From IMG/VR virus record IMGVR_UViG_3300045988_147113: a DNA stretch of 58,419 bases; one strand, written 5' to 3'. Origin of the DNA: a virus. Numbering within the stretch: the first letter of the stretch is position 1; every line of letters starts with the position of its first letter. This document shows, piece by piece, positions 4,102 through 16,015 of this stretch. The position numbers and the translations under genes are program-made. A model generated the notes under the pieces. The model did not search any database. It saw only the letters and a list, made by a program, of their open reading frames with translations, and was not told where the DNA came from.

Positions 4102-4587
4102 TCATACGTCTTCGAAGTGGAAGCCGCATAATGTCTGTTGTTTCCTATATCCGTTCAGTATCTGCGAGATCTTGGTCTGGACTGTATGAGGATCCTTATC
4201 GGTGTAGCCATGCTTGATGAGATATTGCGACGTCTCCATGATGGTAGGAAACACCAGATTGAGCTCCACGATACGATTCGGACGATGACGTCCGTGACGC
4301 GCATCGCTGTCGGGATCGCTTTGTTCGCCAAGCCAGGCTATGACCGTACGGTTGCCGTTGAGAATCGCCTCGACGGCAAATAACAGGTCGGGATGCTTGA
4401 TACGGGCATATTCGCGCAGCCACACGTCGTAGTAGCGCGAATATGCCTCCCAGGTGCGCGGCGTGTCGGGATTGATGGACTCCAGCTGTCCCACGGTCTC
4501 GCGACGGATCTTCATCATCTTGCCGACTTGATGCTGCGTGAGTCCAAGCAGGCACCGTGCGCTGCGATATTCGTCAGGCGTTGGCAT
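4102..4587 (-). CDS. HTH (XRE-like) DNA-binding protein with a NUMOD/IENR-like C-terminal module
   Basis: The N-terminus (ARCLLGLTQHQVGKMMKIRRETVGQLE) is a typical XRE HTH. The C-terminus (F.T..E...YL......I...LNGYRK...GFHFE) resembles the DNA-binding tail of the HNH endonuclease at 9677..10144. Confidence 0.65.
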   Translation of the reverse strand: MPTPDEYRSARCLLGLTQHQVGKMMKIRRETVGQLESINPDTPRTWEAYSRYYDVWLREYARIKHPDLLFAVEAILNGNRTVIAWLGEQSDPDSDARHGRHRPNRIVELNLVFPTIMETSQYLIKHGYTDKDPHTVQTKISQILNGYRKQQTLCGFHFEDV

Positions 4588-5712: not shown

Positions 5713-6114
5713 CTAGCAATACTTTTCCGAGATGTCTCGGCCACCCATGCTGTTGCCACTGGCTCGCTGCGACTTGGCAGGTTCCGGGTGTTGCTTGCTA
5801 TCATGGAGTTCCTCCTGATCCTTGATGTCAATGAAACCGCTGGCGTTGCAATCGACGCACTCCATCCAGATATGGATTACCGGATTGCCATGAGCATCTT
5901 CGATTTCCTCCATACGATCCGCATCCAAATATACGATCGGATACTTATATGGTTCAATATAATCATCGGTTAGGACGACATGTTTTCCTTTCACGAGATC
6001 GACAAAGCCGTTGTAACGCTCTGCGATTTGATCAGACGCCTTGCAGACATTGGCATGTTGTCTCGATACCTGATCAACAAGCTTTTTGATATCAAGAGTG
6101 CCAAAATTAATCAT
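5713..6114 (-). CDS. Hypothetical protein
   Basis: ATG at 6114 with AAAGGTG 5 nt upstream. The track start at 6129 is a TTG codon. Confidence 0.6.
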   Translation of the reverse strand: MINFGTLDIKKLVDQVSRQHANVCKASDQIAERYNGFVDLVKGKHVVLTDDYIEPYKYPIVYLDADRMEEIEDAHGNPVIHIWMECVDCNASGFIDIKDQEELHDSKQHPEPAKSQRASGNSMGGRDISEKYC

Positions 6115-6124
6115 AATTACACCT

Positions 6125-6171
6125 TTCAAAAATAAAGGACAGGTACAGGCCGATGACGGCCCATACCTGTC
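6125..6171 (-). terminator. Rho-independent terminator
   Basis: The GACAGGTA...TACCTGTC stem (6138..6171) has an inner GGCCG/CGGCC stem. On the minus strand it is followed by CCTTTATTTTT. Confidence 0.7.
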
Positions 6172-6182
6172 GAAATGTCATG

Positions 6183-6305
6183 TCAGCGGTATCCGCCGGA
6201 CAATGTCTTGACGAACCACCAGAAGAAATATAATCCTCCGGTGAGGATGGAATAGATGCAGACCTTCAGGACGCCAGGTCTTGGGGTTCGATTATCGTAT
6301 GACAT
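6183..6305 (-). CDS. 40-aa hydrophobic mini-protein
   Basis: MSYDNRTPRPGVLKVCIYSILTGGLYFFWWFVKTLSGGYR. Its ATG overlaps the upstream stop (TGATG). A terminator follows. Confidence 0.45.
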   Translation of the reverse strand: MSYDNRTPRPGVLKVCIYSILTGGLYFFWWFVKTLSGGYR

Positions 6306-7126: not shown

Positions 7127-7158
7127 AGTTCTCATTAAAGGACATGTCTGGTTCGCGA
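7127..7158 (-). promoter_or_regulatory. Conserved upstream motif, copy 1 (minus-strand consensus TCGCGAATGAAACATGTCCTTTAATGAGAACC)
   Basis: Minus strand reads TCGCGAACCAGACATGTCCTTTAATGAGAACT. Located upstream of gene 6892..7107. Confidence 0.6.
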
Positions 7159-7217
7159 AATATAGCCAAAAGACAAAGACCAAGCCGCATGTGCGACTCA
7201 GTCTTTTTTGTCAATTA

Positions 7218-7604
7218 CTAATTTGGATTAACGGTTTTCGTTTCGATTATGTGGCCTTTGCCATCATTCATCTTGACACAGAGATCGTCGATAAATAGTT
7301 TGGCATCCTTAACGATCGTTGATGCTATATTATTAAAATCGTCTATGATCTTCTGCCAACGTTCAACGATGAAATTGTTGTAGAACTTCTGTTTGACGGG
7401 ATCATGCAGATCATTATAAATGTCTGGATAAAGACCTTCAAACTCTTCGTTCCACGAATCAATTTGTTCGTTGAATCGTTTGGCTTGGAAAATATAGCCG
7501 AGCTTGTATAATATCAACAACATTTTGGTGTCAAATGAATCATTATCGATGATATCTCCAGTTTCGATGTCGATGATGACAGGCTTGACATAAATATCGG
7601 TCAT
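7218..7604 (-). CDS. Hypothetical protein
   Basis: 128-aa ORF preceded by motif copy 2. Confidence 0.65.
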   Translation of the reverse strand: MTDIYVKPVIIDIETGDIIDNDSFDTKMLLILYKLGYIFQAKRFNEQIDSWNEEFEGLYPDIYNDLHDPVKQKFYNNFIVERWQKIIDDFNNIASTIVKDAKLFIDDLCVKMNDGKGHIIETKTVNPN

Positions 7605-7626
7605 GATTAACTCCTTAATGTAGTAA

Positions 7627-7657
7627 TAGCTTCATTAAGGGCTATGTTTCTTCCGCG
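7627..7657 (-). promoter_or_regulatory. Conserved upstream motif, copy 2
   Basis: Minus strand reads CGCGGAAGAAACATAGCCCTTAATGAAGCTA. The anti-SD CCTTAATG (7633..7640 on the plus strand as CATTAAGG) pairs perfectly with 7613..7620. Confidence 0.6.
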
Positions 7658-7738
7658 TTAAAAATGATCATCCCACCACAATGGGAACCAAGCTGCGAAA
7701 ATCATAACCAATATGGCGCCTATGAGTAAATATAACAT
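7658..7738 (-). CDS. 26-aa hydrophobic mini-protein
   Basis: MLYLLIGAILVMIFAAWFPLWWDDHF. Its start overlaps the upstream stop as TGATG. Confidence 0.35.
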   Translation of the reverse strand: MLYLLIGAILVMIFAAWFPLWWDDHF

Positions 7739-7932
7739 CAGTTGCTCATCGCGAATTTGAGTAACGAGTTCACGCCCTGGTTACGGCCAAGCTGATACCC
7801 GATGGCGAAAATGCCAAGACCGGCCAATGCCAGATATGCCGGATGATCGAGCACGACATCCTTGAGCGTGGACTTGGATTGATCGATGACCTCGTTGGCG
7901 TCGAGGATCTGAGTGGTGTCATTATCGGACAT
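7738..7932 (-). CDS. Small membrane protein
   Basis: ATG at 7932 with a strong AAGGAG RBS. An alternative upstream start at 7998 is possible. It has a C-terminal TM segment (AYLALAGLGIFAIGY). Confidence 0.55.
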   Translation of the reverse strand: MSDNDTTQILDANEVIDQSKSTLKDVVLDHPAYLALAGLGIFAIGYQLGRNQGVNSLLKFAMSN

Positions 7933-8591: not shown

Positions 8592-9680
8592 TTATCGAGT
8601 CAAGGAAGCAACCAGATCATTGCTTCCAGGATTCGGCGAAATATAGGGTTCGCCGTTTACCAGCCAGTCGAAATCGCCATACTGCGAAATATCATCTCGT
8701 GCCTCATCGGCGAGATGTTCGTAGTAGGTGTAATCGACTTCGTCTTGTTTGTGACTGTCTCGGAGAACGCTCGATTCCTTCCATCGATAGCCCTTGGTAC
8801 CGGACAGCGCGGCGTAACCGCCGTTGCCGTTGTCGCGAACCAACAGACCTCCACCGCAACCCGGTTGGACCGGACTGAAGGCGCTTACCTTTCCGACGAA
8901 ATCATAGCGATGCTCGTCCTCGGGCAGACCTTCGTTGAAGTCTAGGTAGATCGATGTCGTGGCGGATTTGGTTTCGCAAAGATCCTTGAAATCAATCGTT
9001 TCATGAGAGAACAGCGTCTTGAAGACATATGGTACGGCGAACTGTGCACCCGTTGCCGCCCAACCACCATGCGATGCGGCGTCGTGCCCGTCGTCGCCGT
9101 AACAATGATGGGCGATGTACGTCGCTTTGTTGACGATACACATCTTGTCGTAGATCGCTTCGAGTTCGAAATTGTACCCATATTTTTTACCAAAGTCCAT
9201 AACAAATTGCACGATATACTGGTCGGCATCAGCAATTTTAATGGAGTCGGTTTTTACATGTACAGATACATACCCGAGTTCCATGACTTTTTGCTTAAGC
9301 AAAAGCATAAACAAAGCACCACGTTTAGCGACCATGTTTTCAATATTTCGGTCGTTTGATCTATTTTCAACATCGTTGAATTTCGTTGGAAAATGAGCCG
9401 AAGTCAATCCATAAGTCGAATTGATGACGATCTTCAACGCTTGAGCTAACGACTTGGTGTTTTCGCCTTCTTTAAGAAGCGGAGCTAATGCGCCATCCAT
9501 GCATTTTCGGGCTTTTTCAATTTGACCATGTTTAATGAAAATACGAGCTTTCTTAATATCGCTATACTTTTTAGTATAAGGGCCGAAGAAGTTCATATTC
9601 TCAATGCTTGAAGGATGTAGAGATGACACATCCAACAACGCAACATTGCCAAACATTCCTCCGAGTTTCTGACCGCTCAT
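8592..9680 (-). CDS. Family B DNA polymerase, C-terminal (palm/thumb) fragment
   Basis: Motif A is LLDVSSLHPSS (DxxSLYPS-like), motif B is KIVINSTYG and motif C is VHVKTDSI. Its ATG overlaps the HNH gene stop (ATGA). Confidence 0.8.
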   Translation of the reverse strand: MSGQKLGGMFGNVALLDVSSLHPSSIENMNFFGPYTKKYSDIKKARIFIKHGQIEKARKCMDGALAPLLKEGENTKSLAQALKIVINSTYGLTSAHFPTKFNDVENRSNDRNIENMVAKRGALFMLLLKQKVMELGYVSVHVKTDSIKIADADQYIVQFVMDFGKKYGYNFELEAIYDKMCIVNKATYIAHHCYGDDGHDAASHGGWAATGAQFAVPYVFKTLFSHETIDFKDLCETKSATTSIYLDFNEGLPEDEHRYDFVGKVSAFSPVQPGCGGGLLVRDNGNGGYAALSGTKGYRWKESSVLRDSHKQDEVDYTYYEHLADEARDDISQYGDFDWLVNGEPYISPNPGSNDLVASLTR

Positions 9681-10144
9681 GATTTCTCCACTCGTCGAAT
9701 CGTGAATCCTTTATGTTTTTTGACTTTACCAAGTACAGCCTTCGAAATGTTCGATTTTGTACTATGTAAAGCTTTTGCGCATTCAATTTGGCTATCGAAT
9801 TGTTCTCCAGTTTCAATGATCTCAACCGGATAATGATGACCAGGATGAAGCCCTTCCAAATAAGCATGTTTTAGATTCCTAGAATGAGTAGTCCATTCTA
9901 GGTTATCAACAGCATTATTGGCTTTATCTCCGTCAATATGATTGACTTCGTTCCCCGAATGTTTCGGAATCCAAGTTTCAGCGACCAATCTATGAACGAA
10001 TCCGGCTGAAGTTTGTTGATATCCAGAATCATTAATAAATATTGGAAGCTCTCGGCAATGGCTTTGTCGACAACTCACAATTCGTCCTTTATTGGACACC
10101 AAAATTCTTTGATCTTTCAGCCATTGCCTCCAAAGTTCATCCAT
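9677..10144 (-). CDS. HNH homing endonuclease (NUMOD4-HNH-IENR/NUMOD-like) splitting the polB gene
   Basis: The NHIDGDKANNAVDNLEWTTHSRN HNH core is present. The N-terminal W...LVSNKGRIVS is NUMOD4-like. The gene fills the whole gap between the polymerase fragments. Confidence 0.8.
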   Translation of the reverse strand: MDELWRQWLKDQRILVSNKGRIVSCRQSHCRELPIFINDSGYQQTSAGFVHRLVAETWIPKHSGNEVNHIDGDKANNAVDNLEWTTHSRNLKHAYLEGLHPGHHYPVEIIETGEQFDSQIECAKALHSTKSNISKAVLGKVKKHKGFTIRRVEKS

Positions 10145-10147
10145 GAT

Positions 10148-13123
10148 TCACCTTGTACTTTCTAAGTTCATCCATGAGATTTTATTGGTATCCATTCCGA
10201 ACTCTTTATACATGGCTTCAAATTCCTTTCGTCGTTCTTCGCCAGGTTTTTCATAGGACTTGATCATGGTTGATTGATCGATTCCATTCCCATTTGGCAT
10301 TCCATAAACATGGACGTAGCCGCCCTCACTCGGATATTCTCCAAGATATTTGGACTTATGTTCACGATCGGCGAACTTATCAAAAGTATATCCGGGAAAC
10401 TCTTTATGAAGATCAGGCCATGGAAACTCGTCTTGTGGATGTTTGACATCACCAAACACGATTTGTGTGACATGTTGGTTCGTCGAATCATTCGGCGTGA
10501 GGCCGGACAGATTCGCCAGACCTTGACGGGCCACGAAATCCTCATGAAGATGGTTGAACACCGCTTCCGTCGCTCGGACATCATCCTCGCAATATGATTG
10601 CACCAGATCCCAAAGCTTCGGATCGACCGGCTTGTCCCACGGCATGCCGAGTTCGTGATGATCGATTCCAAGCTCGATCTCCCACTTCTTCAATGACTGC
10701 TTCTTTGCGGAGAAGTCGTAGATATCCGTATAGGAGATGTTGTAGGCATTCTGGAACATGGCGTTTCGACTGCGAGGTCCGCCAGCCACGATATCCTGAG
10801 ACAGGTTGTAGAGCTGTTGGTTGTCATAGCCGAGCCAACCCCACGCATACAGCATATGATTGTCGTATCGTCTGTTGTTGAATCCAACCAGCGCCTTGCC
10901 GCAGAGTTTGCGAACATCCTTCGGATCGGGATTGATCAAGGTCTTCACTGGATGATCCTTCTCATCACCTGCGTCTTTGAAGCAGATCATGAATAGGTTC
11001 GGGAACACCTCTACGTCGTAGAACGTCAGAATATCAGGCGTCCCAGTATGCTTTGGCGGTTCCAAGCTATCGGGTTCATCGGAACGAAGCTTCATATTCG
11101 CCACGACCTTCATGCAATAATCTCGATTATGCGTGGAGTTCATGGCAAAATTGAGAATATCCAGACGCATGTCTTCGACGTTATACTGGATGCCAGACTC
11201 GTACGCTTCGTCCAGCAGCTTACAGATGAAGTCGATCGATGGCTTGGTTCCCGGACAATATTCCTTTCTTAGATTCCCTTTGATGAGATTACGAAGATGC
11301 TGCTCATCTTTGATCGCTTTCTCATTGATCATGGTTTTATCTCCTTTGAGAGGAAGACCGCTGGAAATATGCGCGACTTCGAGATCGTTGCATGTGCTGA
11401 GTTTCCTTCGCAATGCAGACTTCCCTCGATACACCTTGCATTCCACGTTGATATCGATCAGAGGCTTCAGTCTCGTCACGTCACCATCGTAAATATAATG
11501 CAGGTGTACGCCCTTACCGGATTTGCTCAATTCCGCATACGTCGGCGGATACTTCGCGGCTTCGGCAAGATTGCGTTCCAGGCTCTTCTCGCCGTCATCG
11601 CCCTTGAGATCAAAGTCGATGACGATATGATTCTCAGGTACTCGTACCCAATGCAGTTTGGTGGTATCCACATCTTTCAATGTGCTGGTCACCTGATCCC
11701 AAGGCAACCGAGGTCCTCCGGTTGGATTATCGGCGGCGTATTGCGCCGGCCAATTCTGAGCCATGCGATCGAATGCCGAATCGGTCGAATCGAGTTCGAG
11801 TTTTCTCGCTTCGATCGGCTTCGGTTTCTCCACTTTCTCGAATTTATCCCAACGGATTCCCTCGAAACCGGTGTTACGAGTGGATTTGCGACCATTGACG
11901 ATGTTGTCAGTCGTCTTGTTGAAATATGATGACAATTCGAACAGGAAGTCATCACGTTTCATGCGCATGGTCACGTTGCCTTCATCACACCAAACCTTAT
12001 ATTGACGCCAAAGTTCGAGGCCATCGATATGATCGTTATCTTCGAATTGGTCGAGAACGCTTGACAAGAACGAATACATATCATTCGTTCTGGCCACCAT
12101 TTCGGTTGGCACGTAATTGCCATATGCGTTCGGACCCAATTCCTGATAGACCTCTCGGCAATGGTGGGCGATCGCACCGAGTTCGAACTTGATGCCGTCC
12201 ATGGCTTCGAAATATTCAGCATTGTTGAGTTTTCGTCCCGATGGATAGACGTCGATCAACCTTCGGATCAGACCAGATTTGGAGTCGGTGATCTTCACTG
12301 GTTTATTCGAGGCCATGAACAGCATTGTCTTGATCGGAATATCATACTGCTTGACGCCTTTCTCATTGACTTTGATGTATTCATGCGAAACAATGGTGTT
12401 CAACAATGAATTATCATCGATCTTTGAGAGGTCGCCGTCGCTTTGAATGGCCACAAGTGGCGCATTCTTGAACGCAGCAGTGGCGAACTGATATCCCTGA
12501 CCAAGTTCCTTGGCATTGAAGAACGAAACGTAGTTCCCGAACAGTTCCTGAATGATATTCAGAATCGTCGATTTACCGGTACCGGGAGCACCGGTAATGG
12601 CGAAGAATTTCTGAATGCGTTTCTGGTCCTTACCATCTACGATCAGACCTATGCCCCATTCGAGCTTTCGACGCTCGTCCGGGTCATAGATCGTTTCCAT
12701 CAGGCGATCATAGTTCGGCGTCGGACCCTCGATGAGATCATATGGCAATTTGAATGATGCGTAATCCTCTCGAGCAACGTCATCATTGTCAAATATAACC
12801 TTCTGATCCAGCATGATGCTGTTGTCATCGAGGTTCTTCAGTTGGGATAGATATCGGTTCCATTGTCCATTGGACATATTGTCCATGTATTCCGGAGTCA
12901 AGGTCTTGTCCGAATGCGTTGCGATATATTCGCTGATATCCCTATCAATGAGTTCGGAGAGGCGACCGACACTTCTGGACCACAGGTGCGTATCTGGATC
13001 ATATACGGCGTAGAACTGTCCACCCTTGACAATAAGATCCTTGAATCCACGGGCCCTAGGATTCGCAATGACCTTGGTTGCGGTTTTGGTGCTTTTGACT
13101 TCAGTCACTCGTATTTGGTCCAT
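10148..13123 (-). CDS. Fusion replicase: SF3 (D5-like) helicase + AEP primase + PolB 3'-5' exonuclease/N-terminal fragment
   Basis: - Walker A is GAPGTGKST (about 12569..12592).
- AEP motifs are IVIDFDL and SKSGKGVHLHYIY (about 11500..11620).
- Exonuclease motifs are ExoI FYDVEVF, ExoII GFNNRRYDNHML and ExoIII YCEDDVRA.
- GGYV is present just before the C-terminus.
- ATG at 13123 follows AAAGGAG. Confidence 0.75.
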   Translation of the reverse strand: MDQIRVTEVKSTKTATKVIANPRARGFKDLIVKGGQFYAVYDPDTHLWSRSVGRLSELIDRDISEYIATHSDKTLTPEYMDNMSNGQWNRYLSQLKNLDDNSIMLDQKVIFDNDDVAREDYASFKLPYDLIEGPTPNYDRLMETIYDPDERRKLEWGIGLIVDGKDQKRIQKFFAITGAPGTGKSTILNIIQELFGNYVSFFNAKELGQGYQFATAAFKNAPLVAIQSDGDLSKIDDNSLLNTIVSHEYIKVNEKGVKQYDIPIKTMLFMASNKPVKITDSKSGLIRRLIDVYPSGRKLNNAEYFEAMDGIKFELGAIAHHCREVYQELGPNAYGNYVPTEMVARTNDMYSFLSSVLDQFEDNDHIDGLELWRQYKVWCDEGNVTMRMKRDDFLFELSSYFNKTTDNIVNGRKSTRNTGFEGIRWDKFEKVEKPKPIEARKLELDSTDSAFDRMAQNWPAQYAADNPTGGPRLPWDQVTSTLKDVDTTKLHWVRVPENHIVIDFDLKGDDGEKSLERNLAEAAKYPPTYAELSKSGKGVHLHYIYDGDVTRLKPLIDINVECKVYRGKSALRRKLSTCNDLEVAHISSGLPLKGDKTMINEKAIKDEQHLRNLIKGNLRKEYCPGTKPSIDFICKLLDEAYESGIQYNVEDMRLDILNFAMNSTHNRDYCMKVVANMKLRSDEPDSLEPPKHTGTPDILTFYDVEVFPNLFMICFKDAGDEKDHPVKTLINPDPKDVRKLCGKALVGFNNRRYDNHMLYAWGWLGYDNQQLYNLSQDIVAGGPRSRNAMFQNAYNISYTDIYDFSAKKQSLKKWEIELGIDHHELGMPWDKPVDPKLWDLVQSYCEDDVRATEAVFNHLHEDFVARQGLANLSGLTPNDSTNQHVTQIVFGDVKHPQDEFPWPDLHKEFPGYTFDKFADREHKSKYLGEYPSEGGYVHVYGMPNGNGIDQSTMIKSYEKPGEERRKEFEAMYKEFGMDTNKISWMNLESTR

Positions 13124-13135
13124 ACCCACTCCTTT

Positions 13136-13696: not shown

Positions 13697-14558
13697 GTCG
13701 GTCCTCCTCATAGGCTTTCCTGGCCATATCTTCGAGAACACGGTGAGATGGCAAGGTGATCTTATCCGGATCGATGCCGAACACCGATTCCTGATATGAT
13801 TCTTCGTGACGTTCAATCACGTAGTCCGTCTCGAACGTGTCATTACGGCAAATCACAACATTCGGATCTTCCTGCCATCCATACTTACCGAATTGCATAA
13901 GTACGGCCATATCGATAAGATCATCCGGACGTTCGACGAGCACTCGTCCTTCGGCGAGTTTGTCGTCTCTGACATAGTAGTCAAGATACACCGTATCGAT
14001 GAAGTCCGGAGCGGTCTTGTGCTCATAGTCGTCGATCATATATGCGGTTCGGTTCGGATCGATGGAGTTCTTGAATCGATGCTCCTTCACTTCGGTGAGC
14101 AGTCCGAGAATGAGATTCTCATCACCTTCGCAAGCATCATATGATGCCTGTTCCTCATCGGTCAACGGCCCATCCCATCGAGGATTGCCGTCATGGATTT
14201 CGAATCGCGCGAAGATCTTGGTTTCGTCTTTGGTCAAGGTTTCAGCCTCCTCTATCTTGGGTTTGATTGCTTCGAGTTCTTTTTTGGCGTCGGCTATGTC
14301 GCTATCGTACATATCGAGACGATCGGACCGTTCTTGGAGATCCTTCTCGTATGCCGCTTTGCGTTCCTCGTAAGCGGCATCCATGGCATCGAGCTGACGT
14401 CCTTTGGATTGACGTTGCTCCTCGAGCTGATTGACTTCGTCCTCCAGCTGTCGAAGCGGTATATACTTTCGATATACACCGAAATATCCGATGACGGTCG
14501 TGACGGCGACACCGGCCAGAAATCCGATGCCGGCGAATATCAGATTCTCACGATTCAT
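13689..14558 (-). CDS. Membrane-anchored coiled-coil protein
   Basis: ATG at 14558 after AAAGGAG. It has an N-terminal TM segment (LIFAGIGFLAGVAVTTVIGYF) and then a charged coiled-coil region. Confidence 0.65.
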   Translation of the reverse strand: MNRENLIFAGIGFLAGVAVTTVIGYFGVYRKYIPLRQLEDEVNQLEEQRQSKGRQLDAMDAAYEERKAAYEKDLQERSDRLDMYDSDIADAKKELEAIKPKIEEAETLTKDETKIFARFEIHDGNPRWDGPLTDEEQASYDACEGDENLILGLLTEVKEHRFKNSIDPNRTAYMIDDYEHKTAPDFIDTVYLDYYVRDDKLAEGRVLVERPDDLIDMAVLMQFGKYGWQEDPNVVICRNDTFETDYVIERHEESYQESVFGIDPDKITLPSHRVLEDMARKAYEEDRHA

Positions 14559-14612
14559 GTTCGCTCCTTTCGAATAAAAAGGGAGCGCCACGATTCCAAT
14601 GACGCTCCCGTA

Positions 14613-15527
14613 TCAGATCTGATCGTAGACGATGCCGTCGCAGTTGAACTGAAGAAGAATCTCTTCCTTGCCATCCCATGGGCAATCCTTGACGTTATCC
14701 CACGGATCATCGCTGCAACCGAATACGCCGAAGTCGACAATCGAATCGTGATCAGGCGTATTGATCCAACCGAGCACAGCGCCTTCCTTGGTATCAGGAA
14801 GACCGAGCAGACGATAGACATCGTTCAAGAACAGATGCCCGGTGTAATCGAGCTTGTTCTGAGCACGATCCAATGCGGACTTCAACATCACGGTATTCAT
14901 ATCCGGTGATTCGTGATCCCAGATCTGAGAATCCGGTCCGAACCATTTATCGGTCGGACTCAGCGTCTGGACGTTCTGCTCCTTCTTGGTCTCGATGATC
15001 TTGCCTTTGTCGTCGGCGACTTCGACGGTGTCGATGTTCTGATAGAACTTCTTATCGACCTCTTCTCCATACTGGGCCACGACACGTTCGCGGTAATCAC
15101 TAAACTTGGCGCTTACAGCAGCGAATGCCGAAGCAACCGCCGTGTATCGAGTCTGGAGGATGTTGTGTGCCGACAGAATGCAGGCGATGCTCAAGCCGGT
15201 CAGAATAATGGTCGGAGCATAGAGCTTCGCGTAAGCCACGGTGGTGCGCATATAGATAATCTGCTTCGACGAAGCCGCTTCATTGACCGTGAAATCACCA
15301 TCATCGAGCTCGCCGTTGTCCACCATCTTTTCGAGGGTTTCGACGCGGCTCATCTCGGTTTCATGGTTCTTCTTCACGTCATCGATATGCATGGTCGACC
15401 GACATGCGGTGACTGTTGCGGCGACGCCAAGCACGATGCCCGAATATGTCAGGATTTCCGGGCCATGTTTCTTCAGAAAGAGACCGCTCTTAGCTGCGGT
15501 TTTGACCAATGTGCTTTTAATGGACAT
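14613..15527 (-). CDS. Membrane protein, paralog of 17611..18363
   Basis: 304 aa. The two proteins share an architecture: an N-terminal K..G.EILT..G..GV TM hairpin, a second TM segment and a C-terminal globular part with GW...D motifs. Confidence 0.65.
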   Translation of the reverse strand: MSIKSTLVKTAAKSGLFLKKHGPEILTYSGIVLGVAATVTACRSTMHIDDVKKNHETEMSRVETLEKMVDNGELDDGDFTVNEAASSKQIIYMRTTVAYAKLYAPTIILTGLSIACILSAHNILQTRYTAVASAFAAVSAKFSDYRERVVAQYGEEVDKKFYQNIDTVEVADDKGKIIETKKEQNVQTLSPTDKWFGPDSQIWDHESPDMNTVMLKSALDRAQNKLDYTGHLFLNDVYRLLGLPDTKEGAVLGWINTPDHDSIVDFGVFGCSDDPWDNVKDCPWDGKEEILLQFNCDGIVYDQI

Positions 15528-15536
15528 GTTTGCTCC

Positions 15537-15731
15537 TTATTTGTTTTTGTAGGCGAACTCGGTTTGCAGAGTCCACTTGTTGGTTGATTCCCAGCGAAAC
15601 ACATAATGCGCTCCACTGAATAATATGATCAATGCCGTATGGTTATCTATTCGGCGGTATTTCTGAACTCGCTCCGAGAGTTCCGGGAAAAGCTGTTGGA
15701 ATTTCACCATGGCAAGAAAACGATCCATCAT
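15537..15731 (-). CDS. Hypothetical protein
   Basis: 64-aa ORF with a 4-nt overlap to the upstream ORF. Confidence 0.5.
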   Translation of the reverse strand: MMDRFLAMVKFQQLFPELSERVQKYRRIDNHTALIILFSGAHYVFRWESTNKWTLQTEFAYKNK

Positions 15732-16015
15732 ATCTCCTCGATCGTGCCGAAATCATTATTCGGATCGGACGTATATAGATATTTCCGTCCATCCCTGGTT
15801 GTAATCACGGCCGTATTCGGCAATCGTCCCGGCCAATCAATAGTGATATCAATCGTCAAGTTCGCTATCTCTGGAAAATGTCGAAACAGGCGATGCAACC
15901 ATGATCTATTGATCAAGGATATCGTTCTGGCTCGATCGGACTCCCGAATATCGTCGACAGTCAACAGCATCTGATGATCGGTTTTATCGATGCCGTCTAT
16001 GATTGGATATGCCAT
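15728..16015 (-). CDS. Hypothetical protein
   Basis: 95-aa ORF. Confidence 0.55.
   Translation of the reverse strand: MAYPIIDGIDKTDHQMLLTVDDIRESDRARTISLINRSWLHRLFRHFPEIANLTIDITIDWPGRLPNTAVITTRDGRKYLYTSDPNNDFGTIEEI

What the first reader, a model, noticed from the sequence alone, without database searches (positions are those of the whole stretch)
8592..13123. Family B DNA polymerase gene split just upstream of motif A by a free-standing HNH homing endonuclease gene
- **N-terminal fragment.** It carries ExoI, ExoII and ExoIII and the pre-motif-A GGYV, and ends at 10148.
- **Endonuclease.** The HNH ORF (9677..10144) begins 3 nt after the N-fragment's stop codon.
- **C-terminal fragment.** Its start (MSGQKLGGMFGNVALLDVSSLHPSS, motif A) overlaps the HNH stop as ATGA.
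- **What this excludes.** No non-coding sequence is left for a group I intron core. I saw no intein splice blocks (no Cys/Ser/Thr +1 context and no HN at the end).

The polymerase must therefore function as two polypeptides, cut within about 60 residues of the catalytic DxxSLYPS site. That site is a classical target for selfish elements. The arrangement is comparable to split gp43 in some T4-like phages and split PolB in some archaea.
Basis: partly seen in the sequence, partly recalled or inferred. Interest (0 to 1): 0.7.

Follow-up and report, generated by a model that had tools for sequence, protein, structure and literature searches.

The report
Phage DNA polymerase split by endonuclease
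A phage's replicative family B DNA polymerase is encoded as two separate genes with a selfish HNH endonuclease gene wedged between them; near-identical phages carry the same gene unbroken, which makes this a clear but not unprecedented case of a mobile element passing on a broken essential gene.

Summary
On the minus strand lie:
- a 993-aa gene (13129..10148) with SF3 helicase, primase-like region, DEDDy exonuclease and the pre-motif-A GGYV strand;
- a 155-aa HNH_3/NUMOD endonuclease gene (10144..9677);
- a 362-aa gene (9680..8592) with polymerase motifs A, B and C.

The two polymerase pieces match one 1304-position PHROG profile end to end. Profile and fold searches place the C half in family B.

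No intron or intein signal was found. Relatives rule out splicing as the usual way of rejoining the halves at this split point. Their gap ranges from 59 nt to 3.6 kb holding about ten ORFs, one of them on the opposite strand; another relative carries a thymidylate synthase gene there. Almost every split C gene has its own Shine-Dalgarno site.

Three further results:
- About 20 contigs that are 92-100% identical in flanking DNA have one unbroken ~1370-aa gene, with a 75-aa linker where the window is split.
- The split allele differs from them by a ~1.35-kb, low-GC (0.40 vs 0.51) patch centred on the HNH gene. This is a co-conversion signature.
- Two near-identical relatives carry different in-frame deletions of the HNH catalytic core, while both polymerase halves stay under purifying selection.

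This is a new member of a known kind (split gp43 of T4-like phages; Aeh1 NrdA).

The parts
10148..13129 (-). N-terminal polymerase gene (993 aa): SF3 helicase, primase-like region, DEDDy 3'-5' exonuclease domain, pre-motif-A strand and a tail.
   Evidence: ORF list. Pfam DUF5906 and Pox_D5. PHROG 4210 'DNA polymerase', residues 6-940 to profile positions 6-949, score 1162.8 bits. The exonuclease-domain model's best fold hits are family B polymerases: phi29, Pol epsilon, RB69, KOD. Purifying selection within the split group: 181 synonymous-only vs 34 amino-acid-changing codons.
12569..12592 (-). Walker A P-loop GAPGTGKS of the SF3 (D5-like) helicase module.
11495..11623 (-). Primase-like motifs VIDFDL ... 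SGKGVHLHY. The AEP (archaeo-eukaryotic primase) type is my own reading; only weak PHROG primase hits support it.
   Evidence: for coordinates. phrog_3022 'DNA primase', E 0.0011, at residues 499-550. The assignment as AEP is an inference.
10568..11023 (-). Exonuclease motifs: ExoI at 11003-11023, ExoII at 10850-10885, ExoIII at 10568-10594.
   Evidence: D705, E707, N751, Y755, D756, Y846 and D850 are invariant in the 12-sequence alignment A2. In the 42-sequence alignment A3, N751, Y755, D756, Y846 and D850 stay invariant, while D705 and E707 are conserved in at least 90% of sequences.
10298..10324 (-). GGYVHVYGM: the last segment of the N gene shared with the whole clade. It is the pre-motif-A strand, equivalent to GGYVxEP of classical PolB.
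   Evidence: Alignment with unsplit homologues. Alignment of the family profile to E. coli Pol II GGYVMDSRPGLYDSVLVLDYKSLYPS.
10148..10297 (-). N-terminal tail: 49 residues (10297..10151) plus the stop codon (10150..10148). It is homologous to the 5' two-thirds of the 75-aa linker of the unsplit sister allele and is predicted helical.
   Evidence: Helices at model residues 57-70 and 75-87 in the P0001 model, and at 272-278 and 283-296 in the window model. Relaxed constraint: 1 synonymous-only vs 6 amino-acid-changing codons.
10180..10183 (-). A-run that is one base shorter than in four near-identical relatives. This frameshifts the last 10 residues of the N tail (ISWMNLESTR* instead of (N/D)LMDELRKYKVNHG*).
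10133..10177 (-). Exact 14-nt direct repeat TCATGGATGAACTT, at 10164-10177 in the N tail and at 10133-10146 at the HNH start.
   Evidence: Two matches in the window against 0.07 expected. MDE(E)LW is the native start of the HNH family. DLIDEL is native to the tail of the HNH-less relative L006.
9677..10144 (-). Free-standing HNH homing endonuclease gene (155 aa). The catalytic core is at 9875-9997 and the NUMOD-like DNA-binding part at 9725-9799. A Shine-Dalgarno-like AAGGTG lies at 10149-10154.
   Evidence: Pfam HNH_3 35.1 bits (cut-off 24.8) and I-HmuI_NUMOD-like 24.1 bits. phrog_59 E 2.6e-34. 923 homologues, typically 155-165 aa. Absent from about 20 near-identical sister contigs. Internally deleted in L124 and L125.
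8592..9680 (-). C-terminal polymerase gene (362 aa) covering palm, fingers and thumb. Motif A is at 9606-9662, motif B at 9408-9434 and motif C at 9243-9260. Its own Shine-Dalgarno GGAG lies at 9686-9689, inside the HNH 3' end.
   Evidence: PHROG 4210, residues 8-347 to profile positions 953-1291. Family profile vs PDB: E. coli Pol II E 2.6e-8. Foldseek: the top 50 hits are all family B polymerases. 52 synonymous-only vs 7 amino-acid-changing codons.
9150..10500 (.). Mosaic, low-GC recombination patch (~1.35 kb). It carries the N tail, the HNH gene, the C head and motifs A-C, and it distinguishes the split allele from the unsplit allele of otherwise 92-100% identical phages.
   Evidence: The identity profile against L010 and L013 drops from 0.92-1.00 to 0.60-0.78 within this stretch only. 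GC is 0.397 here, against 0.51-0.52 in the sister and 0.487 window-wide. The boundaries are good to about 100 nt.

Best explanation
The window encodes a large phage replicase (SF3 helicase, primase-like region, proofreading exonuclease, family B polymerase). The replicase is expressed from two adjacent genes as two polypeptides.

**Where the break lies**
- The break sits in a clade-specific, partly disordered linker.
- The linker lies between the GGYV strand and the motif-A strand of the palm, about 10 residues before the catalytic aspartate.

**What occupies the gap**
- A free-standing HNH_3/NUMOD homing endonuclease gene fills the gap exactly.
- It uses a Shine-Dalgarno site inside the end of the N gene, and it supplies the Shine-Dalgarno site for the C gene.
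- The three genes are probably co-transcribed and translationally coupled.

**How the polymerase works**
- No RNA or protein splicing is involved.
- Inferred: the N fragment contributes the exonuclease domain and one palm strand, the C fragment contributes the rest of the palm, the fingers and the thumb, and the two associate non-covalently. The helical N tail may help.

**How the allele arrived**
- Inferred from the mosaic patch: the split allele entered this phage lineage by double-strand-break repair or recombination with a divergent, lower-GC donor that already had the split.
- About 350 nt upstream and about 530 nt downstream were co-converted along with the endonuclease gene. An unsplit, linker-containing gene was thereby converted into a two-gene one.

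**What is happening now**
- The endonuclease gene is decaying in the population, while both polymerase halves are maintained.
For: **Shown here**
- ORF geometry and overlaps.
- The two halves are complementary on one profile.
- Family B membership by profile (E. coli Pol II E 2.6e-8) and by fold (top 50 Foldseek hits, probability 1.0). The exonuclease fold's best hits are phi29, Pol epsilon, RB69 and KOD.
- The HNH gene passes the Pfam threshold and belongs to a family of 923 proteins.
- No Rfam hit at E<=10 in 9300-10700 or at gathering score window-wide. The tail RNA is not unusually structured, z = -0.22. No Hint or intein domain at Pfam E<=0.01.
- Relatives share the split point but differ in the gap:
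  - 59 nt (L120/L121);
  - 206 nt (L006, L026, L063);
  - a 213-aa ORF of unknown function (BitterVaud1);
  - DUF6275 plus a 41%-identical HNH (L122);
  - thymidylate synthase (L123);
  - 3.6 kb with about 10 ORFs, one on the opposite strand (L118/L119).
- A GGAG or GGAGG lies 5-12 nt (17 nt in L123) before the start of 14 of the 15 split C genes examined; BitterVaud1 has only GGCGG.
- About 20 sister contigs have one ~1370-aa ORF with a 75-aa linker. The linker's disordered segment, model residues 89-104, is where the window is split.
- The 1.35-kb low-GC patch is centred on the HNH gene.
- Two independent in-frame deletions of the HNH core (L124, L125) and one premature stop (L008).
- Selection within the split group, counted as synonymous-only vs amino-acid-changing codons: N gene 181:34, C gene 52:7, HNH 8:8.

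**From the literature**
- The split 43A and 43B of Aeromonas phage 25 co-purify and are active (PMC2988022, citing Petrov 2010).
Against: - There is no direct evidence for transcripts, proteins, assembly or polymerase activity. Heterodimer formation is inferred from conservation and by analogy.
- The donor of the patch is not in the data. The patch could therefore reflect ordinary mosaic recombination rather than endonuclease-initiated homing.
- The endonuclease's cleavage site is unknown.
- The N tail shows relaxed constraint (1 synonymous-only vs 6 amino-acid-changing codons) and is frameshifted at its end in this window. The short-tail relatives lack most of it. Its proposed role in assembly is therefore weak.
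- The exonuclease-domain fold match is modest (best E 6e-3).
Confidence: 0.85

Rival explanations
1. The intervening sequence is a self-splicing group I (or group II) intron that carries the HNH ORF. Splicing would restore a single polymerase mRNA and a single-chain enzyme.
For: - Phage DNA polymerase genes are classical hosts of group I introns with HNH ORFs, for example SPO1/I-HmuI (own knowledge; cited in PMC2988022).
- The N reading frame runs about 150 nt beyond the last residue shared with distant homologues. This could have hidden intron sequence.
Against: - No Rfam match at E<=10 over 9300-10700, and none at gathering score in the whole window.
- The 171-nt segment upstream of the HNH gene folds no better than shuffled sequence, z = -0.22.
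- That segment is protein-coding. It is homologous to an in-frame linker kept open in about 20 sister contigs, with 24 synonymous-only vs 13 amino-acid-changing codons.
- Only about 20 nt remain 3' of the HNH ORF.
- Relatives with the same split point hold 59 nt, or several unrelated genes, in the gap.
- Nearly all split C genes have their own Shine-Dalgarno site and start codon.
Confidence: 0.03
2. This is a 'fractured gene'. The N tail and C head would be the halves of a split intein, which trans-splices the two polypeptides into one polymerase, with the endonuclease gene lying between them as in Dassa et al. 2009.
For: - The architecture (enzyme half, free-standing endonuclease gene, enzyme half, in a phage replication gene) is the one described for fractured genes (PMC2677866).
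Against: - The C head is only 5-8 residues before the conserved LGG, and the N tail is 20-55 residues. To my knowledge split inteins need roughly 100 plus 35 residues.
- No Hint or intein domain at Pfam E<=0.01.
- I see no Cys/Ser/Ala at a plausible N-splice junction, no terminal His-Asn, and no Cys/Ser/Thr at +1 before LGGMFGNV.
- In the unsplit sister allele the tail and head are simply continuous as a retained linker. This shows they are not excised.
Confidence: 0.02
3. The polymerase gene is broken and non-functional in this lineage, or the split is an assembly or sequencing artefact. Replication would rely on another enzyme.
For: - The window has a unique 1-nt deletion in a homopolymer in the N tail.
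- One relative, L087, has a deletion plus frameshift in the gene.
Against: - The same split with the HNH gene is seen in five independent assemblies (window, L007, L008, L124, L125).
- Both halves are under strong purifying selection within that group: 181:34 and 52:7 synonymous-only vs amino-acid-changing codons.
- All catalytic motifs are intact.
- Split genes at the same point occur across a clade with 100% bootstrap support, and nearly all have conserved translation signals.
Confidence: 0.05
4. The split long predates the HNH gene. The gap is simply a permissive intergenic site, and the HNH gene landed there like any other accessory gene ('moron') and has no homing relationship to the polymerase gene.
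For: - Gaps at the same point are empty or hold unrelated cargo, including thymidylate synthase and many small ORFs.
- A neighbour-joining tree places the unsplit forms inside the split clade.
- The review of T4-like phages raises the same possibility for phage 25 vs 44RR (PMC2988022).
Against: - Within this species the HNH gene and the split co-occur. Together they are delimited by a single recombination patch against an unsplit background.
- HNH genes of the same family sit in the gap in a 65%-identical relative (L122). They also sit at a second, independent split point before FPGY (L034, L129, L032).
- This rival is partly compatible with the main explanation. The split may be old in the donor lineage.
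Confidence: 0.2

Closest known systems
Split gp43 (43A/43B) family B polymerase of T4-related Aeromonas phages 25 and 44RR (Petrov, Ratnayaka & Karam 2010, as summarised in PMC2988022)
   Same: - A phage PolB encoded by two adjacent genes.
- In one phage the gap holds a free-standing homing endonuclease gene (seg43(25)); in a relative it holds only an untranslated spacer.
- Here too there are both endonuclease-occupied gaps (window, L122) and empty gaps (L120, 59 nt).
- The same open question arises of whether the endonuclease caused the split or invaded an existing one.
- The phage 25 halves co-purify and are active, which makes a two-subunit enzyme plausible here.
   Different: - A different PolB lineage: here it is fused to an SF3 helicase and a primase-like region, and Pfam DNA_pol_B does not recognise it.
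- A different endonuclease family: HNH_3/NUMOD rather than a GIY-YIG seg.
- I could not compare the split positions, because the primary paper is not in the library.
- Here an unsplit allele with a 75-aa linker coexists in phages that are 92-100% identical in flanking DNA, and a co-conversion patch is visible.
Aeh1 NrdA split by the HNH endonuclease gene mobE (Crona et al. 2011, PMC3045599)
   Same: - An essential DNA-metabolism gene fragmented by a free-standing HNH endonuclease gene.
- The two polypeptides carry extra C- and N-terminal tails at the break.
- Function is restored by protein-protein assembly, not splicing.
   Different: - A different enzyme.
- In Aeh1 the tails were shown experimentally to be essential. 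Here the tail looks weakly constrained and is much shorter in many relatives, and nothing has been tested.
- Here the tails correspond to a linker that also exists in an unsplit form.
[quoted passage not shown] 2009, PMC2677866)
   Same: - Gene order: enzyme half, endonuclease gene, enzyme half, in phage DNA synthesis genes.
   Different: - No split-intein halves are present here. The flanks are too short, there are no Hint blocks and no splice-junction residues.
- The halves must stay separate.
Split archaeal PolB of Methanobacteriales and Nanoarchaeum equitans (Kelman 1999 and Choi 2006, as discussed in PMC4104785)
   Same: - A family B polymerase encoded in two pieces.
- The split is attributed to the activity of a selfish element.
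   Different: - The archaeal cases are linked to inteins (erratic excision or trans-splicing), not to a free-standing HNH gene.
- From my own recollection, not checked here, the archaeal split points correspond to intein insertion sites in or after the catalytic motifs.
I-HmuI-type HNH endonucleases of Bacillus phage SPO1/SP82 DNA polymerase introns (own knowledge; Landthaler & Shub reference cited in PMC2988022)
   Same: - The same protein architecture: an HNH core plus an I-HmuI NUMOD-like DNA-binding module (Pfam PF13392 and PF22083).
- The same kind of target gene, a phage DNA polymerase.
   Different: - I-HmuI is encoded inside a self-splicing group I intron, so the polymerase stays single-chain.
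- Here the gene is free-standing and the polymerase is left in two pieces.

Membership tests
Family B DNA polymerase | Motif A (DxxSLYPS), preceded by the GGxVxEP strand. | tested here: met
   The window has GGYVHVYGM at the end of N and GGMFGNVALLDVSSLHPSS in C. The family profile aligns to E. coli Pol II GGYVMDSRPGLYDSVLVLDYKSLYPS (coordinates).
Family B DNA polymerase | Motif B (KxxxNSxYG) and motif C (DTDS). | tested here: met
   KIVINSTYG and HVKTDS align to Pol II KIIMNAFYG and YGDTDS. Deviation: the first Asp of DTD is Lys throughout this family, and only the second Asp is kept (T244, D245 and S246 are invariant in A1).
Family B DNA polymerase | Overall palm, fingers and thumb fold of PolB. 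| tested here: met
   The model of P0001 (sister-allele C half plus linker; pLDDT 80.9) was searched against the PDB. The top 50 Foldseek hits are all family B polymerases (Pol alpha, Pol II, KOD/9N, Pol delta, ASFV), with E down to 4e-8 and probability 1.0.
Family B DNA polymerase | N-terminal DEDDy 3'-5' exonuclease domain with ExoI, ExoII and ExoIII. | tested here: met
   The motif residues are invariant in A2, and in A3 they are invariant or conserved in at least 90% of sequences. For the window's exonuclease model (pLDDT 81.3) the best fold hits are phi29 polymerase (E 6e-3, probability 0.98), Pol epsilon, RB69 and KOD. The sequence profile alone gave nothing significant in the PDB.
Family B DNA polymerase | Recognition by the curated Pfam DNA_pol_B model (PF00136). 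| tested here: inconclusive
   There is no hit for the window fragments at E<=0.01. Relatives give only sub-threshold hits (E 0.025-0.083; 12-14 bits against a cut-off of 23). This is a divergent lineage; membership rests on the profile-vs-PDB and fold results.
Free-standing HNH homing endonuclease (I-HmuI-like, HNH_3 plus NUMOD) | Intact HNH catalytic core. | tested here: met
   PF13392 scores 35.1 bits against a cut-off of 24.8. The core VHRLV...VNHIDGD...NLEW..H is present. phrog_59 E 2.6e-34.
Free-standing HNH homing endonuclease (I-HmuI-like, HNH_3 plus NUMOD) | Own translation signals; not embedded in an intron or intein. | tested here: met
   A Shine-Dalgarno-like AAGGTG lies 5 nt before the ATG, and the gene has its own stop codon. 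No intron or intein signal was found.
Free-standing HNH homing endonuclease (I-HmuI-like, HNH_3 plus NUMOD) | Presence/absence polymorphism between closely related genomes, with flanking co-conversion. | tested here: met
   The gene is present in 5 contigs and absent from about 20 sister contigs that are 92-100% identical outside a 1.35-kb patch centred on it.
Free-standing HNH homing endonuclease (I-HmuI-like, HNH_3 plus NUMOD) | Site-specific cleavage of the endonuclease-less allele. | not testable with these tools
   This needs an in vitro cleavage assay on the sister (L009/L010-type) linker and motif-A region.
Two-subunit split PolB (as 43A/43B of Aeromonas phages 25 and 44RR) | Two adjacent genes that together cover one complete PolB without overlap or loss. 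| tested here: met
   PHROG 4210 profile positions 6-949 and 953-1291; alignment with unsplit homologues.
Two-subunit split PolB (as 43A/43B of Aeromonas phages 25 and 44RR) | Both halves maintained by selection and separately translated. | tested here: met
   Synonymous-only vs amino-acid-changing codons are 181:34 (N) and 52:7 (C). Of the 15 split C genes examined, 14 have GGAG or GGAGG upstream of the start, mostly 5-12 nt away.
Two-subunit split PolB (as 43A/43B of Aeromonas phages 25 and 44RR) | The halves physically associate and polymerise DNA. | not testable with these tools
   No multimer prediction or experiment was available. This was shown for phage 25 only (PMC2988022).
Group I intron | Conserved catalytic core (P3-P9) detectable by covariance model. 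| tested here: not met
   No Rfam match at E<=10 in 9300-10700, and none at gathering score in the window. Folding z-score -0.22.
Intein or split intein | Hint-domain blocks and splice-junction residues, in frame with the host protein. | tested here: not met
   No Pfam intein or Hint hit. The HNH ORF is separated by a stop codon, and the C gene is in another frame. The tails are too short and lack junction residues.

The most novel reading that the evidence does not exclude
**Spread of the split state.** Fission of this essential replicase is a transmissible and reversible allelic state. A homing endonuclease spreads a pre-adapted 'split cassette' (N tail, endonuclease gene, C head, catalytic motifs A-C) into unsplit genes by co-conversion.

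**Reversal.** After the endonuclease decays, the two genes can re-fuse. This would leave the former tails as a 75-aa in-frame linker 'scar', as in the sister allele and in L087.

**Further use of the gap.** Alternatively, the gap can become a landing pad for cargo genes, such as thymidylate synthase or the 3.6-kb ORF arrays.

**A second cycle.** A second split point before FPGY, with the same endonuclease family, would be an independent instance of the same cycle.
Probability: 0.35. Interest if true: 0.6.

Novelty: new member of a known kind. Interest (0 to 1): 0.45.

Why it matters
Splitting of essential phage genes by free-standing homing endonucleases is known from only a few experimentally studied cases: T4-like gp43, Aeh1 NrdA, and T4 gp39/gp60.

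This locus adds a different PolB lineage, a helicase-primase-PolB fusion common in gut and actinobacterial siphoviruses. It offers an unusually complete natural series:
- unsplit with no linker;
- unsplit with a linker;
- split with an empty gap;
- split with an intact endonuclease gene;
- split with a decaying endonuclease gene;
- split with cargo genes in the gap.

Unsplit and split alleles also occur in phages 92-100% identical outside the patch.

This makes three questions directly testable:
- How does a polymerase tolerate a break one strand away from its catalytic aspartate?
- Do the tails mediate assembly?
- Can homing itself convert a one-gene enzyme into a two-gene one?

It also matters for annotation. 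Pfam misses the polymerase domain, and the closest GenBank phage, BitterVaud1, labels all three genes 'hypothetical protein'.

Tried and rejected
**Searches that found nothing or little**
- Megablast of the region against GenBank phages: no match.
- Single-sequence phmmer of either fragment against PDB sequences: nothing. A family profile was needed.
- Exonuclease-domain profile against PDB sequences: only Pol gamma exonuclease at E 0.58. A fold search was needed.
- Pfam and PHROG scans of the 213-aa ORF in the BitterVaud1 gap: no hits.

**Ideas considered and rejected**
- Group I or II intron, tested with Rfam in permissive mode on 9300-10700 and at gathering score window-wide: nothing.
- Promoter and terminator scan for independent transcription units between the three genes: nothing above background.
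- Intein or split intein: rejected on frame, length and the absence of Hint hits.
- Stop-codon read-through giving an N-HNH fusion (in the window the two share a frame across a TGA): rejected, because the four closest relatives have the HNH gene in another frame.
- The apparent splits in L004 and L005 (gene calls of 462 and 365 aa): these are artefacts of N-runs or frame breaks in scaffolds, not real splits.

**Technical limits**
- The repeat finder did not report the 14-nt direct repeat. It was confirmed with the DNA search.
- The first tree run timed out and was redone with a faster distance routine. Internal bootstrap values are low, and mosaicism makes the gene tree an unreliable guide to the order of fission and fusion.
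- The N-side homologue search returned only short proteins, so it gave no statistics on full-length versus split N genes.
- The primary paper on split gp43 (Petrov 2010) is not in the library, so the split positions could not be compared.

Full report
**What is in the sequence.** Three tightly packed genes lie on the minus strand.
- The first runs from 13129 (GTG; an ATG lies at 13123) to a TGA at 10150..10148 and encodes 993 residues.
- After three bases (ATC) comes a 155-residue ORF, 10144..9677.
- Its stop overlaps, as ATGA, the start of a 362-residue ORF, 9680..8592.
- AAGGTG lies 5 nt before the second start codon and GGAG lies 5 nt before the third.
- A consensus scan finds no promoter or terminator of note between the genes, so co-transcription with coupled translation is the simplest reading.

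**Are the outer genes two halves of one polymerase?** Yes.
- Both match a single PHROG family (phrog_4210, 'DNA polymerase', 1304 positions). N residues 6-940 cover profile positions 6-949, and C residues 8-347 cover positions 953-1291.
- In uninterrupted homologues (Faecalibacterium phage FP_oengus, 1337 aa; Curtobacterium phage Pippin15) the sequence reads GGYVYAEPGMYTNVALLD.
- In the window the N gene ends GGYVHVYGM plus a 49-residue tail, and the C gene starts MSGQKL-GGMFGNVALLD.
- The N gene also carries a DUF5906/D5-type SF3 helicase and a primase-like region. The whole is therefore a helicase, primase-like, exonuclease and polymerase fusion.

**Is it family B?** Pfam does not recognise the polymerase part. 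Relatives give only sub-threshold DNA_pol_B hits.
- A profile of 43 C-half homologues hits E. coli Pol II at E 2.6e-8, and also hits archaeal PolB and Pol alpha. The alignment places the pre-motif-A strand and motifs A, B and C in register.
- An AlphaFold model of P0001 (pLDDT 80.9) was searched against the PDB. P0001 is the sister-allele protein that runs from FPGY through the linker to the C terminus. The top 50 Foldseek hits are all family B polymerases, with probability 1.0.
- The exonuclease region has invariant or near-invariant DEDDy residues. Its model (pLDDT 81.3) best matches phi29, Pol epsilon, RB69 and KOD polymerases, though only modestly (best E 6e-3).
- Motif C reads KTDS rather than DTDS throughout this lineage.

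**The middle gene.**
- It passes the Pfam HNH_3 threshold and has an I-HmuI NUMOD-like C-terminal part. It matches PHROG 59 at E 2.6e-34.
- It belongs to a family of more than 900 proteins, mostly 155-165 aa, that start MDE(E)LW.
- This is the architecture of phage homing endonucleases.

**Splicing?**
- Permissive Rfam scans find no intron family.
- The RNA upstream of the HNH gene folds no better than shuffled controls.
- No Hint or intein domain is detected.
- The C gene is in a different frame from the HNH gene.
- The flanks are too short for split inteins.

The decisive evidence is comparative. A search with the C half returned, as its best 120 hits, only short stand-alone proteins. Where I fetched the DNA, relatives share the same split point: their C genes start M-x(3-8)-LGG[MFI]FGNV. 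Their gaps differ widely:

| Relative | Content of the gap |
|---|---|
| L120/L121 | 59 nt |
| L006, L026, L063 | 206 nt, with a 56-aa ORF |
| Bifidobacterium phage BitterVaud1 | a 213-aa ORF with no family match |
| L122 | DUF6275 plus an HNH 41% identical to the window's |
| L123 | an 83-aa ORF, thymidylate synthase and a 57-aa ORF |
| L118/L119 | 3.6 kb with about ten ORFs, one on the opposite strand |

.

Of the 15 split C genes examined, 14 have a GGAG or GGAGG upstream of the start, mostly 5-12 nt away. BitterVaud1 has only GGCGG. Splicing cannot be the usual way of rejoining the halves at this split point. The enzyme must work as two polypeptides.

**The unsplit allele.** About 20 IMG/VR contigs (L004, L009-L025, L027, L059) have one uninterrupted ORF of ~1370 aa through the site.
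- Relative to distant homologues they carry a 75-aa in-frame linker: GGYVWVYGM-ANGDNG...TGKDRLERYREVYRSQDMDFDTMHPDLAKRLEGYSYDGTDQFMPELPDKK-LGGMFGNV.
- The window's N tail and C head are homologous to the two ends of this linker.
- In the model the linker forms two helices (residues 57-70 and 75-87), followed by a disordered stretch (residues 89-104, pLDDT about 35). That disordered stretch is where the window is broken.
- The linker is kept open and under moderate purifying selection: 24 synonymous-only vs 13 amino-acid-changing codons.

**How the split allele got here.**
- The window is 92-100% identical in nucleotides to these unsplit sister contigs along the polymerase gene and its neighbours.
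- The exception is a stretch from about 10500 to about 9150. There, identity falls to 0.60-0.78 where the sequences can be aligned.
- That ~1.35-kb patch is centred on the HNH gene. Its GC content is 0.397, against 0.51-0.52 in the sister and 0.487 for the whole window.
- The patch contains the N tail, the HNH gene, the C head and motifs A-C.
- This is what co-conversion of flanking markers during endonuclease-initiated repair would leave. I infer that a donor which already had the split supplied the whole cassette. The donor itself is not in the data.

**The endonuclease is decaying.** Four further contigs carry the same split allele at about 96% identity: L007, L008, L124 and L125.
- L124 and L125 have different in-frame deletions, of 165 nt and 141 nt, that remove the HNH catalytic core.
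- L008 has a premature stop.
- Within this group the N and C genes show 181:34 and 52:7 synonymous-only vs amino-acid-changing codons. The HNH gene shows 8:8.
- The polymerase halves are therefore maintained while the selfish gene degenerates, as expected late in a homing cycle.

**Details specific to this window.**
- The A-run at 10180-10183 is one base shorter than in all four relatives. The last 10 residues of the N tail are therefore frameshifted, and the '3 nt after the stop' geometry is unique to this window. In the relatives the N stop overlaps HNH codons 2-3. This may be a real mutation or a homopolymer sequencing error.
- An exact 14-nt direct repeat, TCATGGATGAACTT, occurs in the tail and at the HNH start. 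Both copies seem native to their contexts. It may mark microhomology at the junction, but I cannot show that.

**Wider pattern.**
- A second split point lies about 35 residues upstream, just before FPGY(E/T)F. It occurs in other branches of the family.
- It again appears both with an HNH_3/NUMOD gene in the gap (L034, L129, L032) and without one (L126-L128, 15-nt gap; L040, a 108-aa ORF).
- A neighbour-joining tree of C halves gives the first split clade 100% bootstrap support. It nests the unsplit-with-linker forms (the L009 group and L087) inside it.
- Taken at face value this suggests re-fusion. However, internal support is low, and the recombination shown above makes the gene tree unreliable on this point.

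**Comparison with what is known.**
- The closest parallel is the split gp43 of T4-related Aeromonas phages. Phage 25 has a seg endonuclease gene between 43A and 43B, phage 44RR has only an untranslated spacer, and the two halves co-purify and are active (PMC2988022, summarising Petrov et al. 2010).
- Aeh1 NrdA, split by the HNH gene mobE, assembles through tails created at the break (PMC3045599).
- 'Fractured genes' combine the same gene order with split inteins (PMC2677866). That does not apply here.
- Archaeal split PolBs are linked to inteins (PMC4104785).
- The present case is therefore a new member of a known kind. It differs in PolB lineage and in endonuclease family, and it comes with an unusually informative set of natural alleles.

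**What is shown and what is inferred.**
- Shown: the gene geometry, the complementarity of the halves, family B membership, HNH identity, the absence of detectable intron or intein, the unsplit sister allele, the mosaic patch, endonuclease decay, and selection on both halves.
- Inferred: non-covalent assembly and activity of the two polypeptides, any role for the tail, endonuclease-initiated homing as the cause of the patch, and the order of fission and fusion in the clade.

Noticed in passing
window 10180-10183: The A-run is one base shorter than in all four near-identical relatives (L007, L008, L124, L125). This frameshifts the last 10 residues of the N-gene tail. It is either a real mutation or a homopolymer sequencing error.
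   Followed up: yes
window 10133-10146 and 10164-10177: An exact 14-nt direct repeat, TCATGGATGAACTT, lies in the polymerase tail and at the HNH start (2 matches vs 0.07 expected). Recombination between the copies would fuse the N gene in frame to the HNH gene. Its origin (junction microhomology or coincidence of two MDEL codings) is unresolved.
   Followed up: partly
L034 1616-6167; L129 1276-5592; L126 1774-5676; L040 56-4119; L032: A second, independent split point in the same polymerase family lies just before FPGY(E/T)F, about 35 residues upstream of the window's. It occurs both with an HNH_3/NUMOD gene in the gap (L034, L129, L032) and without one (L126-L128, 15-nt gap, seen in 17 contigs; L040, a 108-aa ORF).
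   Followed up: partly
L123 3573-5008; L118 1419-5000: In split relatives the gap between the two polymerase genes holds cargo. L123 has a thymidylate synthase gene plus two small ORFs. L118/L119 have 3.6 kb with about ten small ORFs, one on the opposite strand. The break has become an ordinary insertion hot spot.
   Followed up: partly
L087 about 1950-2070: This rumen metagenome-assembled-genome contig has an unsplit, linker-containing polymerase (71% identical). The segment FPGY...KSKY is deleted, with a frameshift. It is either a defective gene or an assembly error.
   Followed up: partly
L001 5352-5993 (Bifidobacterium phage BitterVaud1, MT006236): The gap of the closest GenBank phage holds a 213-aa ORF with an acidic N terminus and no Pfam or PHROG match. 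All three genes are annotated 'hypothetical protein' in the record.
   Followed up: partly
one search hit list (for example P0241, P0254, P0260, P0273, P0291): The search with the exonuclease region returned only proteins of 220-550 aa, some on contigs of 50-170 kb. This hints that the exonuclease domain may be a separate gene in some relatives, which would be further fission points. It could also be a limitation of the word index.
   Followed up: no
window about 14504-15949, 7152-7780, 5952-6271 and 4168-4470: There are other stretches where the window drops to 0.63-0.82 identity against the otherwise 92-98% identical sister contigs L010 and L013. Mosaic exchange is therefore not confined to the polymerase patch.
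   Followed up: no
window, whole: The longest ORFs of the 58-kb window are mostly on the minus strand. No tRNA gene and no Rfam family at gathering score was found. Related IMG/VR contigs are 55-60 kb, so the window is probably a near-complete siphovirus-like genome. The closest isolate infects Bifidobacterium.
   Followed up: partly
L008 about 4984 (HNH codon 150): The HNH gene of L008 has a premature TGA six codons before the normal stop. This adds to the two internal deletions in L124 and L125 as evidence of endonuclease decay.
   Followed up: yes
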